Assembly (NCBI GenBank): GCA_963765765.1
Contig: CAVXYC010000032.1
Coordinates: 32,001 to 96,000 of the forward strand
Source of the DNA: an uncultured Chloroflexia bacterium
GTDB lineage: Bacteria > Chloroflexota > UBA6077 > JACCZL01
DNA: 64,000 nucleotides
Reading direction: 5' to 3'
Below the pieces are notes generated by a model. It ran no database searches. It saw only the letters and a list, made by a program, of their open reading frames with translations, and was not told the origin of the DNA. The position numbers and the translations under genes were made by a program. This document shows, in pieces, positions 62,865 to 64,000 of the stretch; position 1 is the first letter of the stretch; each line of letters starts with the position of its first letter.

Positions 62865-62889
62865 TGCTGGTAGCAACGGTCTTGGAATG

Positions 62890-63852
62890 TCAAGCTGGGG
62901 ATAACTTGGCAGCATTCCAATCCTGATTGGTGGCAATGAGGTGATTGAGGATGCGCAGCAGCTTGCCCATGCAGGCGGTGAGCGCCACCTTCGTCGGTTT
63001 CCCGGCAGTGCGCAGCCGCTGATAGAACGCGCGCAGCGCGGGGTTGTGCCGCACGCCGACCAGGGCGCCCATATACAGCGCGGCCCGGACATCGGCCCGC
63101 CCGCCCCAGATGCGGCGCCGGCCACGCATGGTCCCACTGTCGCGGCTATGCGGCGCCAGGCCCACCAGCGCGGTGATCTCTTTGCGGCCCAGTCGGCCCA
63201 GCTCCGGCAGGCGTGCCAGGAGGGTGGCCGCGATGGTGGGGCCGATGGCCGGCACCGTCCGGAGCCGCTGGGCCTTCCCGTGCCAGACCGGATCCTTGGC
63301 CACGCGCTCGGCCAGCTCTTTCTCGATCGCGGCCAGCTCCGCTTCGAGCCATTCCACGTGACGGGTGATGCCGGGGCGGACCACCGGATCCGCCTGCCGC
63401 AGGCGCTGCCGTTCGGCGACCAGCACGTCCCGCAATTGCCGACGTCGATCCACCAGCGCCTGCAGCGCCTGCGTGGCGGCGTCGAGCGGCGGACGCACCG
63501 CGGGCGCGACCGCCTCGGCAAAGTGCGCCAGCACGTGCGCATCGAGGGCGTCGGTCTTCGCCAGGCGACCGGTCGCGCGCGCGAAATCGCGCACCTGGCG
63601 CGGATTCACCACCGCGACGGGCAGTCCGGCCGCGGTGAGTGCCGTGGCCAGCGGCCGCTCGAGCCCACCGGTAGCTTCGAGCACGATGCGCTCGGGCACC
63701 AGCGGTCCCAGGGTGTCCACCAGGGCGGCGCACCCGTCGTCCGTATTGGGTACCGACCACCACTGGCCCGACGGACGGAGCGCGACGACCAGCTCCGCTT
63801 GGGCGACATCAATCCCCACGACGACTGGGGGTGCGGCGGACTCCGAGCTCAT
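62890..63852 (-). CDS. IS110 transposase/recombinase
   Basis: GIDVA, LEATG, KTDALDA (DEDD); RDSGT serine; GAGGAGG RBS. Confidence 0.96.
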
Positions 63853-63869
63853 ACCACGCCTCCTCATGG

Positions 63870-64000
63870 CGACACTGGCAGTCGGCGACGGCGTCCCCAG
63901 GCCGGAACTTGCAGATACGGGCTGAGCGCCCCGGCAACAGTACAGGCTCACGGGACGACGGGCAGAGGTGAGGCCCAGGCTACAAAACGGTCTCACCGGA
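63870..64000 (-). ncRNA. IS110 bridge RNA, 3' portion
   Basis: ACTGTTGC (63941-63934) matches the element end ACCGTTGCT; GTATCTGCAAG and TTGTAG are placed like IS621 guide segments. Confidence 0.65.

What the first reader, a model, noticed from the sequence alone, without database searches (positions are those of the whole stretch)
62872..64000. IS110 bridge RNA with guides readable against its own donor end and target
Seen (minus strand): the element ends TTGACA-ttccaagACCGTTG-CT|ACCAG. Upstream of the transposase are ACTGTTGC (63941-63934; equals ACCGTTGC with one wobble-compatible change), a short stem, then GTATC-TGCAAG (63918-63908). Further 5', a hairpin is followed by TTGTAG (63985-63980), complementary to the flank CTACCA at 5 of 6 positions. 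Known: IS621-type bridge RNAs have target- and donor-binding loops around a CT core, and circularisation joins a right-end -35 to a left-end -10. Inference: a natural bridge recombinase with its own specificity. Prediction: the left end starts CT-TGYA.
Basis: partly seen in the sequence, partly recalled or inferred. Interest (0 to 1): 0.72.

Follow-up and report, generated by a model that had tools for sequence, protein, structure and literature searches.

The report
IS110 element with readable bridge RNA
A small jumping gene of the IS110 family carries, ahead of its recombinase gene, a guide ("bridge") RNA whose two loops match the element's own joined ends and the repeated palindrome it inserts into; it is a clear new example of a mechanism described in 2024, not a new mechanism.

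Summary
The window's last 1.1 kb is most of a 1,259-bp IS110-group insertion sequence on the minus strand. It runs past the window end to window-equivalent 64132 (G000:C32:96132). Its left end reads CT-TGTATC, as predicted. Its right end reads ACCGTTG-CT at 62872.

Four copies in the genome, uninterrupted target sites, and one metagenome contig with the empty site at this very locus fix both boundaries.

The 279-nt left end holds a target-binding loop (LTG AUCCGCACU, RTG UUUGUAG) and a donor-binding loop (LDG ACUGUUGCC, RDG AUCUGCAAG). I placed these by homology to 38 non-redundant relatives. In the relatives the stems covary. The guides covary with each element's own flanks and ends: RTG matched the right flank 7/7 in 53 of 70 loci, against 2 of 4,518 non-cognate pairs.

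The recombinase keeps the DEDD and Ser catalytic residues of IS621. The target is the 3' shoulder of a REP-like palindrome (TTCCGCA-CT-ACAAA).

RNA expression and recombination activity were not shown.

Verdict: a new member of the known IS621-type bridge recombinases. It is well supported and of ordinary interest.

The parts
62872..64000 (-). Visible part of the insertion sequence. The whole element is 1,259 bp counting one CT. It runs from window-equivalent 64132 (G000:C32:96132, beyond the window end) to 62874, plus the right-hand CT at 62873-62872.
   Evidence: Four copies align exactly between CT-TGTATC and ACCGTTG-CT. Empty sites exist.
62867..62873 (-). Core CT (62873-62872) plus right target CTACCAG of this copy. 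It pairs with the RTG at 5 of 7 positions.
   Evidence: The other copies read CTACAAA (7/7), CTACGAA (6/7) and CTACAGC (5/7).
62874..62880 (-). Left donor (LD) ACCGTTG, the last 7 nt of the right end. It is bound by the LDG with one U-G wobble.
   Evidence: in 34 of 38 non-redundant relatives the LDG 7-mer equals the right-end 7-mer exactly. The own element differs at one position.
62881..62884 (-). Sub-terminal inverted repeat CAAG. Its partner CTTG lies at window-equivalent 64125-64122.
   Evidence: Read from the sequence. The same aAG...CTT pattern occurs in relatives. Short STIRs of the IS110 group are described in PMC11208160 (passages).
62888..62893 (-). -35 box TTGACA of the split promoter. 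It overlaps the recombinase stop codon.
   Evidence: cTTGAC is conserved at this offset in relatives. No complete sigma-70-like site was found in the integrated state.
62890..63852 (-). Recombinase gene, 320 aa: a RuvC-like DEDD domain and a Tnp domain. Catalytic residues are D15, E59, D101, D104, S239 (+G240).
   Evidence: Residue roles come from PMC11208158 (passages).
63859..63865 (-). Ribosome-binding site GAGGAGG, 6 nt before the ATG.
   Evidence: Read from the sequence.
63891..63957 (-). Donor-binding stem-loop: outer helices, an internal loop, and a cap hairpin at 63931-63919.
63933..63941 (-). Left donor guide (LDG) ACUGUUGCC.
63908..63916 (-). Right donor guide (RDG) AUCUGCAAG. It pairs discontiguously (CU bulged, one G-T wobble) with CT-TGTAT of the left end.
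   Evidence: A 9-nt RDG pairing with 7 donor bases is described in PMC11208160 (passages).
63906..63907 (-). Handshake guide of the donor loop. U63907 is complementary to target position 7 (A).
   Evidence: Watson-Crick in 50 of 58 element/site combinations. The own U:A replaces the usual G:C.
63980..63986 (-). Right target guide (RTG) UUUGUAG, followed by handshake base C63979.
63964..64000 (-). 3' half of the target-binding stem-loop. The 5' half lies beyond the window end, with outer helix 64027-64019, second helix 64017-64014, and left target guide AUCCGCACU at 64012-64004.

Best explanation
This is a compact IS110-group insertion sequence of 1,259 bp. It encodes a 320-aa DEDD/Ser recombinase and, in its 279-nt left end, a bridge RNA of roughly 225 nt.

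Inferred cycle, following IS621:
- Excision joins the right end to the left end through one CT.
- That junction puts the right-end TTGACA 18 nt from the left-end TATCTT, and the resulting promoter drives the bridge RNA and the recombinase.
- The RNA's second internal loop holds the junction. [quoted passage not shown] - The first internal loop holds the chromosomal target. [quoted passage not shown] - The recombinase exchanges strands at the CT, helped by single-base handshake guides (C63979 with donor G7, U63907 with target A7).

The natural target is the 3' shoulder of a REP-like palindrome, GGCGGAAT-nn-ATTCCGCA-CT-AC. Here that palindrome lies 8 nt downstream of a CoA-transferase gene.

Shown: anatomy, boundaries, homology, covariation, and insertion polymorphism.
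Inferred: transcription, circle formation, and catalysis.
For: Protein:
- PF01548 (9.4e-22) and PF02371 (4.9e-18).
- PDB relatives ISCro4 9t56 (2.6e-41) and IS621 8wt6 (7.5e-41) over residues 12-319.
- D15/E59/D101/D104/S239/G240 align with IS621 D11/E60/D102/D105/S241/G242 (residue roles from PMC11208158 passages).

Boundaries:
- Four copies share exactly CT-TGTATC...ACCGTTG-CT.
- There are 15 genomic TTCCGCACTAC sites. They include uninterrupted palindromes with the same left flank as this copy.
- A contig of soil-metagenome run X1 covers the right flank up to the core and then continues with the reverse complement of the 13-nt left flank. That is the empty site.
- A contig of run X2 joins the right end to C30:284748-284777. 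That site is empty in this genome and is one of the three best guide matches, with 1 mismatch in 14.

RNA structure:
- Covariance model R1 was built from 39 left ends. It scores the own copies at 84, 84, 84 and 69 bits and hits 80 places in 85 loci.
- On that alignment 93.5% of cells pair, against 78.4% in shuffles. 16 of 17 pairs show compensatory changes. 0 of 500 shuffles reach the observed values. The covariation score is 0.463, against at most 0.144 for slid partners.

Guides in relatives:
- LDG 7-mer equals the right-end 7-mer in 34 of 38 non-redundant relatives, with the right end at stop+17 in 28 of 38. Over all aligned loci it is exact in 65 of 80, one mismatch in 5, and not found in 10.
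- RTG complements the right flank 7/7 in 53 of 70, 6/7 in 12, 5/7 in 4 and 4/7 in 1. Only 2 of 4,518 non-cognate pairs were perfect.
- LTG best match averages 6.31 of 9 (n=68) against 4.75 for non-cognate pairs.
- Handshake bases are Watson-Crick in 50 of 58 (donor loop) and 35 of 36 (target loop) combinations.

Own element at the homologous positions:
- LTG matches 8/9 at three sites and 7/9 at the fourth.
- RTG matches 7/7, 6/7, 5/7 and 5/7 at the four sites.
- LDG matches 7/9, plus one U-G wobble.
- RDG pairs at 7/7, counting one G-T wobble.
- Against non-cognate flanks the own RTG never exceeds 4/7 (n=67), and the own LTG reaches 7/9 once in 64.

Promoter: a perfect TTGACA sits in the right end, and no complete sigma-70-like site exists in the integrated locus (0 found).
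Against: - No direct evidence that the RNA is made. The only RNA-library signal is a 448-nt metatranscriptome contig with 10 differences over the 5' part of the gene, the DBL and part of the TBL. It shows neither strand nor ends, and it may be DNA carry-over.
- Thermodynamic folding alone is not distinctive. The z-score is -0.12 for 280 nt and -1.59 for 143 nt, with 14 of 200 shuffles folding as well.
- No Rfam family reaches threshold.
- The own LDG differs from its donor at position 3 (U opposite G), and its second core base is C opposite A.
- The donor-loop closing helix has a U-C mismatch where 58 of 60 distinct relatives have C-G.
- This copy's right flank matches the RTG at only 5 of 7.
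- Two of the four copies look broken. C16 has a 1-nt deletion that shifts the frame at about codon 217. C28 has over 80 differences with indels, one of them inside the LDG. Some of this could be assembly error.
- The -10 (TATCTT, 4 of 6) at an 18-nt spacing is only fair.
- Run X1 may be the sample the genome was assembled from. Its empty-site contig therefore shows heterogeneity, not independent replication.
- The search for right ends used the LDG itself, so the LD/LDG match is partly circular. The RT/RTG and LT/LTG tests are not.
Confidence: 0.9

Rival explanations
1. The element is a bridge-RNA IS by descent but this lineage no longer moves. The guides are still readable, but the wobble in the LDG, the mismatch in the donor-loop helix and the broken copies mark decay.
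For: - LDG U opposite donor G, and a U-C mismatch where relatives have C-G.
- The C16 copy is frameshifted before the catalytic Ser, and the C28 copy is heavily decayed.
- No RNA or circle evidence.
Against: - The C32 and C30 copies differ by a single base in a non-guide part of the leader, and both encode the intact 320-aa protein.
- Catalytic residues are intact.
- Metagenome contigs show this site empty and another predicted site occupied. This indicates movement within the recent population.
- G-U pairs are ordinary in RNA-DNA guides, and the G-T wobble in the RDG is common among relatives.
Confidence: 0.15
2. An ordinary IS110 transposase whose leader is only a translational or regulatory leader. 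The guide-like matches are chance, and target choice is made by the protein.
For: - Single 6-8-mers of this kind occur at chance frequency in the window.
- Folding energy is not exceptional.
Against: - The matches sit at homologous positions where the guide sequences of relatives change together with their flanks: 53 of 70 perfect RTG matches against 2 of 4,518 non-cognate pairs.
- Stems covary.
- Handshake bases covary.
Confidence: 0.02
3. An IS1111-group (seekRNA-type) element whose guide RNA lies in the right end, downstream of the gene.
For: It has the same protein family domains.
Against: - Only 16 nt lie between the stop codon and the right-end core, against 279 nt upstream of the gene.
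- The sub-terminal repeat is 4 bp, not 7-17 bp.
- The structured RNA model hits the left end.
- Group criteria are from PMC11208160 (passages).
Confidence: 0.01

Closest known systems
IS621 of Escherichia coli (IS110 group; bridge RNA; PDB 8wt6 and others)
   Same: - Domain order and all five catalytic residues.
- CT core, long left end and short right end.
- -35 in the right end.
- A left-end RNA with a target loop followed by a donor loop.
- A 9-nt LTG.
- A discontiguous 9-nt RDG against CT-TGTAT-type donor bases.
- Handshake bases.
- A target on the 3' shoulder of a REP palindrome ending in CT-AC. The IS621 natural target is ATCAGGC-CT-AC (PMC11208160 passages).
   Different: - It is a distant homologue (E 7.5e-41 over about 308 aa).
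- It has different guides and a different host repeat.
- The RTG is 7 nt here, against 4 nt stated for IS621.
- The own LDG carries a U-G wobble.
- The predicted RNA is longer (about 225 nt against 177 nt) because of a larger 5' stem-loop region.
- The host is a soil bacterium that earlier notes call Chloroflexota, not an enterobacterium.
ISCro4 recombinase (PDB 9t56)
   Same: It is the best solved-structure match (2.6e-41, residues 12-319).
   Different: I know it only as a PDB molecule name. I read no paper on it.
ISPpu10 of Pseudomonas putida (structure-gated bridge recombinase; bioRxiv 10.64898/2026.03.19.712850, abstract read)
   Same: It is an IS110-group element that inserts next to a genomic hairpin in intergenic repeats. 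Here the left target is the 3' arm of a hairpin, GCGGAAT-GA-ATTCCGC.
   Different: - The abstract says ISPpu10 lacks the 5' stem-loop and needs the target hairpin.
- The present element has a long 5' region.
- Whether it needs the hairpin is untested. One of its four insertions (C28) has no such palindrome at the left flank.
Unnamed relatives in Dehalococcoidia, Thermomicrobiales, Burkholderiales and other genomes (loci L005-L084)
   Same: They share the RNA architecture, the left-end start CT-TGTATCTT, and the right end TTGAC-n-AAG-ACNGTTG-CT.
   Different: - At most 58% protein identity.
- No detectable nucleotide similarity of the leader by blastn.
- Different LTG and RTG sequences and different targets.

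Membership tests
IS110 family, IS110 group (IS621-type bridge recombinase element) | Recombinase with an N-terminal RuvC-like DEDD domain and a C-terminal Tnp domain | tested here: met
   PF01548 at 77.9 bits (cut-off 29) and PF02371 at 65.7 bits (cut-off 21.3). PDB relatives are IS621 and ISCro4.
IS110 family, IS110 group (IS621-type bridge recombinase element) | Catalytic D, E, D, D and Ser (IS621 D11, E60, D102, D105, S241) | tested here: met
   Own D15, E59, D101, D104, S239 (+G240) align with them. The PDB chain numbering is offset by 2. Roles are from PMC11208158 passages.
IS110 family, IS110 group (IS621-type bridge recombinase element) | Long non-coding left end, short right end, and a short (2-4 bp) sub-terminal inverted repeat | tested here: met
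   Left end 279 nt. Right end 16 nt after the stop. CAAG and CTTG flank the 14-bp donor. Criteria are from PMC11208160 passages.
IS110 family, IS110 group (IS621-type bridge recombinase element) | The same core dinucleotide at both ends and in the empty target, with no other duplication | tested here: met
   CT is at both ends of all four copies. Empty sites read TTCCGCA-CT-AC.
IS110 family, IS110 group (IS621-type bridge recombinase element) | Left-end RNA with two stem-loops, each holding a large internal loop, after a 5' stem-loop | tested here: met
   Covariation on 60 distinct sequences: 16 of 17 pairs are compensatory and 0 of 500 shuffles reach the observed values. The MFE of the own 143 nt shows the same helices. 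The alignment was fitted to the model, which favours the structure. The slid controls argue against an artefact.
IS110 family, IS110 group (IS621-type bridge recombinase element) | First loop complementary to the target (LTG to bottom strand, RTG to top strand). [quoted passage not shown] | tested here: met
   Own element: LTG 8/9, RTG 5-7/7, LDG 7/9 plus a wobble, RDG 7/7 with a wobble. Relatives.
IS110 family, IS110 group (IS621-type bridge recombinase element) | Handshake guide bases next to the RTG and RDG that pair with position 7 of the other DNA | tested here: met
   C63979 pairs with donor G7 and U63907 with target A7. Across relatives 35 of 36 and 50 of 58 are Watson-Crick. The definition is from PMC11208158 passages.
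IS110 family, IS110 group (IS621-type bridge recombinase element) | Promoter reconstituted across the circle junction (-35 in the right end, -10 in the left end) | tested here: inconclusive
   TTGACA at 62893-62888 and TATCTT at 64128-64123 would be 18 nt apart after joining, by arithmetic. No complete site exists in the integrated locus. I built no junction sequence and saw no junction read.
IS110 family, IS110 group (IS621-type bridge recombinase element) | The RNA is expressed, binds the recombinase and directs recombination | not testable with these tools
   There is only a metatranscriptome contig without strand or ends.
Rfam RNA families | Match to a curated family above its gathering score | tested here: not met
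   No family reaches threshold. The best is sX15 (RF02234) at 26.8 bits against 55, on the opposite strand. I do not know whether Rfam 15 holds a bridge RNA family.
IS1111 group (right-end guide RNA) | Long right end holding the RNA, and a 7-17-bp sub-terminal inverted repeat | tested here: not met
   The right end is 16 nt and the repeat is 4 bp. Criteria are from PMC11208160 passages.

The most novel reading that the evidence does not exclude
This is a compact (1.26 kb, 320 aa) bridge recombinase from a soil bacterium that earlier notes call Chloroflexota. It belongs to a little-studied clade with a 9+7-nt target guide, giving 14 specified target bases. Its recognition may be gated by the REP-like hairpin that forms the left target, as reported for ISPpu10. 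It naturally tolerates a U-G wobble and an unpaired core base in the donor guide. Metagenome contigs suggest that it is still moving between copies of that repeat in soil populations. If so, it would be a natural orthologue with longer target specificity and a built-in 'safe-site' logic.
Probability: 0.25. Interest if true: 0.5.

Novelty: new member of a known kind. Interest (0 to 1): 0.33.

Why it matters
It shows that bridge RNA guides can be read straight from raw sequence when both ends and the target are in hand. It also adds a fully annotated natural example outside the enterobacterial models: boundaries, four guides, handshake bases, split promoter and target repeat.

The relatives collected here give a small independent replication of the guide-to-flank covariation that defined bridge RNAs. 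There are 80 loci with 29 different right target guides.

For tool builders, the 7-nt RTG and the short protein may be useful.

For genome biology, it links one REP-like repeat family of this genome to the IS that exploits it.

It does not change the known mechanism.

Tried and rejected
- Rfam scans of the window part and of the extended locus gave no family above threshold.
- blastn of the own 345-nt leader against the leaders of 64 relatives gave no hit. Homology had to be found through motifs and structure.
- RNAalifold on the plain MAFFT alignment A1 recovered only part of the donor loop (11 pairs), because gaps were placed inconsistently in the target-loop stems. I therefore wrote 17 pairs by hand, built R1 and realigned.
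- One hand-written pair (columns 127:150) paired in only 11 of 39 sequences and was dropped before building.
- Rows dropped before A1: L014 had no motif at the expected place. L035 and L039 had irregular donor loops. R1 later found all three.
- Five loci gave no R1 hit (L048, L049, L062, L074, L075). All hold fewer than 150 nt upstream of the gene match.
- The folding-energy z-scores do not by themselves support a structured RNA.
- The promoter scan of the integrated locus found nothing. I did not build the circle junction as a sequence.
- Read laying on contigs of four runs showed no joint rows. Only loose ends were informative. The parts of the element without cover in X1 and X2 mean nothing.
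- The RNA-library contigs of X15 cannot show transcription, strand or ends.
- The LT/LTG test used the nearest upstream CTTGTA and the best of five registers. It is noisier than the RT test, and some left ends are probably mis-assigned.
- I did not use the search for homologous proteins, structure prediction, complex prediction or the protein atlas. The family assignment did not need them.
I cannot say whether this element or its clade is already listed there.
- Papers seen only as search listings: PMC13626964, 10.64898/2026.08.31.748434, 10.1101/2025.10.25.684509, 10.64898/2026.08.14.744561.
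Full report
**What is there.** The window is G000:C32:32001-96000. On the minus strand, 63852-62890 encodes a 320-aa protein with the two IS110-family domains. PF01548 (DEDD_Tnp_IS110) scores 9.4e-22 and PF02371 scores 4.9e-18. Its nearest solved relatives are the ISCro4 (9t56, 2.6e-41) and IS621 (8wt6, 7.5e-41) recombinases, aligned over residues 12-319. In that alignment the own D15, E59, D101, D104 and S239-G240 stand opposite the residues that the IS621 structure paper names as the composite active site. 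Those are D11, E60, D102, D105, S241 and G242, and the PDB chain is numbered two higher (PMC11208158, passages read).

- blastn against the genome finds four copies: C32 (this one), C30 (99.9%), C16 (99.1%) and C28 (94.6%).
- Aligned with their flanks, all four share sequence exactly from CT-TGTATCTTGAAC to AGACCGTTG-CT and differ outside it. The left end lies at window-equivalent 64132 and the right end at 62872.
- The element is 1,259 bp counting one CT.
It reads CT-TGTA.
- The genome holds 15 copies of TTCCGCACTAC. Several are uninterrupted palindromes with the same left flank as this copy, for example C14:364115.
- In contigs of soil-metagenome run X1, a 286-nt contig follows the right flank to the core and then continues with the reverse complement of the 13 nt that lie left of the element. 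That is this locus without the element.
- In run X2, a 145-nt contig joins the right end to C30:284748-284777. That stretch is unique in this genome and there follows an empty TTCCGCA-CT-AC site.
- X1 may be the source sample of the assembly. So this shows heterogeneity rather than independent confirmation, but it fixes the junctions to the base.

**The observation itself.** As isolated short words they mean nothing. ACYGTTGC occurs 4 times in the window against 3.55 expected. Their weight comes from comparison with relatives.

**Relatives and RNA structure.**
- A scan of one genome per species returned 231 relatives, of which the best 80 loci were kept. They have 44-58% protein identity and come from Dehalococcoidia, Thermomicrobiales, Burkholderiales and others.
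- Their leaders share no blastn-detectable similarity with the own leader. They do share a clear layout: a left end starting CT-TGTATCTT, then a first stem-loop with a variable internal loop, then a second stem-loop with a conserved one.
- I aligned 39 non-redundant leader segments (A1). L014, L035 and L039 were left out.
- I wrote 17 base pairs that most rows obeyed and built covariance model R1.
- R1 finds the four own copies at 84, 84, 84 and 69 bits, plus a fifth, different element on C33 at 68.5 bits.
- R1 hits 80 places in 85 loci. The five loci without a hit have almost no upstream sequence.
- On the resulting alignment of 60 distinct rows, 93.5% of cells pair against 78.4% in shuffles. 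16 of 17 pairs have compensatory changes. No shuffle of 500 reaches any observed measure. Sliding the partners by 1-3 columns drops the covariation score from 0.463 to at most 0.144.
- The alignment was fitted to the model, which favours the structure. The slid controls and the many pair types (for example CG/UA/GC/AU/GU at one pair) speak against an artefact.
- The MFE of the own 143 nt reproduces the same helices. Its energy is not remarkable: z = -1.59 there, and -0.12 for 280 nt.

**Guides.** I use the definitions of the 2024 paper (PMC11208160 passages):
[quoted passage not shown] - The LDG and RDG do likewise on the donor.
- The core is included each time.
- The RDG is nine RNA bases pairing discontiguously with seven donor bases.

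The homologous positions in the own RNA are:
- LTG AUCCGCACU, 64012-64004, just outside the window.
- RTG UUUGUAG, 63986-63980.
- LDG ACUGUUGCC, 63941-63933.
- RDG AUCUGCAAG, 63916-63908.

In the relatives these positions change together with the DNA they should bind:
- The LDG 7-mer is identical to the last 7 nt of the right end in 34 of 38 non-redundant relatives. It is followed by CT, and the right end lies 17 nt after the stop codon in 28 of 38.
- Over all aligned loci the LDG match is exact in 65 of 80, off by one in 5, and not found in 10.
- The RTG test is independent of how the ends were located. The 7 nt starting at the right-hand CT are the exact complement of the RTG in 53 of 70 loci, 6/7 in 12, 5/7 in 4 and 4/7 in 1. 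There are 29 different RTGs. Among 4,518 non-cognate pairings only 2 are perfect, and the mean is 3.80 against 6.67.
- The LTG test is noisier, since it uses the nearest CTTGTA and the best of five registers. It still separates the groups: mean 6.31 of 9 (n=68) against 4.75.

For the own element:
- The LTG matches TTCCGCA-CT at 8 of 9 at three sites, and CTCCCCA-CT at 7 of 9 at the C28 site.
- The RTG matches the four right flanks at 7/7 (C30), 6/7 (C16), 5/7 (this copy) and 5/7 (C28).
- The LDG matches ACCGTTG-CT at 7 of 9, with a U-G wobble at position 3 and C opposite A at the second core base.
- The RDG pairs with CT-TGTAT at all seven positions, with CU bulged out and one G-T wobble.
- Against the flanks of other elements, the own RTG never exceeds 4 of 7 (n=67). 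The own LTG reaches 7 of 9 once in 64.

**Handshake bases.** The structure paper defines handshake guides next to the RTG and RDG. After strand exchange they pair with position 7 of the other DNA.
- Here C63979 follows the RTG and is complementary to donor G7.
- U63907 follows the RDG and is complementary to target A7.
- Across relatives the donor-loop base is Watson-Crick to left-target position 7 in 50 of 58 combinations: G:C 43, A:T 5, U:A 2. The target-loop base pairs with donor position 7 in 35 of 36.
- The own U:A is a compensatory departure from the usual G:C.

**Target.**
- Scoring the genome against the guide-predicted 14-mer gives 3 sites with one mismatch and 11 with two. Most lie on the 3' shoulder of a palindrome GGCGGAAT-nn-ATTCCGCA-CT-AC. 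The palindrome occurs 11 times in strict form and 32 times loosely.
- IS621 likewise targets the 3' shoulder of E. coli REP elements, ATCAGGC-CT-AC (PMC11208160 passages).
- In this copy the palindrome lies just downstream of a family III CoA-transferase gene (PF02515, 1.4e-133). That gene's stop codon is 8 nt from the element's right end.

**Promoter.**
- The right end carries a perfect TTGACA (62893-62888) that overlaps the stop codon. The left end carries TATCTT (64128-64123).
- Joining the ends through one CT would space them by 18 nt, by arithmetic. cTTGAC is conserved at that offset in relatives.
- The integrated locus has no complete sigma-70-like site.
- This fits the reconstituted promoter described for IS621. 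It remains an inference here.

**State of the copies.**
- C32 and C30 differ by one base in a non-guide part of the leader, and both encode the intact protein.
- C16 has a 1-nt deletion in an A-run that shifts the frame at about codon 217.
- C28 is decayed and has a deletion inside the LDG.
- The assembly is a metagenome-type genome (91.8% complete, 6.9% contamination), so single-base indels may be errors.

**Comparison and verdict.**
- Every defining feature of an IS110-group, IS621-type bridge recombinase element that sequence can test is met. Expression, RNA binding and catalysis cannot be tested here.
- It is not an IS1111-type element. The right end is 16 nt and the sub-terminal repeat is 4 bp (criteria).
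- Differences from IS621 are of degree: a longer RTG (7 against 4 nt), a larger 5' region, a wobble in the donor guide, and another host and repeat.
- The ISPpu10 preprint reports that a target hairpin is required (abstract read). The left target here is a hairpin arm, but one of the four insertions lacks the palindrome, so a requirement is open.
- An earlier first-reader note of this scan (e1-6380575) reads the same split promoter. I reached the same spacing independently.
- I rate this a new member of a known kind.

Noticed in passing
G000:C33:18944-19085 (+), locus L089:1376-1700: A second, different IS110-group element in the same genome, with its own bridge RNA (R1 68.5 bits). Its left end is CT-TGTATCTT. 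Its loop GUAAGGAUCC matches its left flank GAAGGAT-CT, and its RTG matches its right flank CTTCCC. Its recombinase reading frame appears split over several frames, and PF01548 did not register it.
   Followed up: partly
window 63885-64000 and on to 64042, plus strand (L001:1885-2042): There is a weak Rfam match to Xanthomonadaceae sRNA sX15 (RF02234, 26.8 bits, E 0.06, below the gathering score of 55). It lies on the strand opposite to the bridge RNA and spans both loops. This raises the question of whether sX15 is related to IS110 left ends.
   Followed up: no
genome-wide, e.g. C14:364098-364125, C7:105136-105201, C8:19280-19306: A REP-like palindrome family, GGCGGAAT-nn-ATTCCGCACTAC, often occurs in inverted pairs. 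There are 11 strict and 32 loose copies. It is the natural target of this IS. Earlier notes of the scan describe several other REPIN-like families in this genome.
   Followed up: partly
L014, L017, L018, L019: 117-233: In one Dehalococcoidia genome the R1 match lies about 1.27 kb upstream of the recombinase match, instead of directly before it. This could be extra DNA between the bridge RNA and the gene, or a neighbouring element.
   Followed up: no
L005: about 1270-1315: Two left-end starts (CCCTTGTATCTT) sit about 30 nt apart before one bridge RNA, as if a left-end remnant precedes the element.
   Followed up: no
window 42115-42411: An earlier first-reader note (e1-6380576) proposes an orphan structured RNA here with a bridge-loop-like arm. 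Model R1 gave no match there at E <= 1 in the whole-genome search.
   Followed up: partly
window 61683-62864 (+): A family III CoA-transferase gene (PF02515, 1.4e-133) ends 8 nt from the IS right end. The targeted palindrome would have been its downstream hairpin.
   Followed up: no
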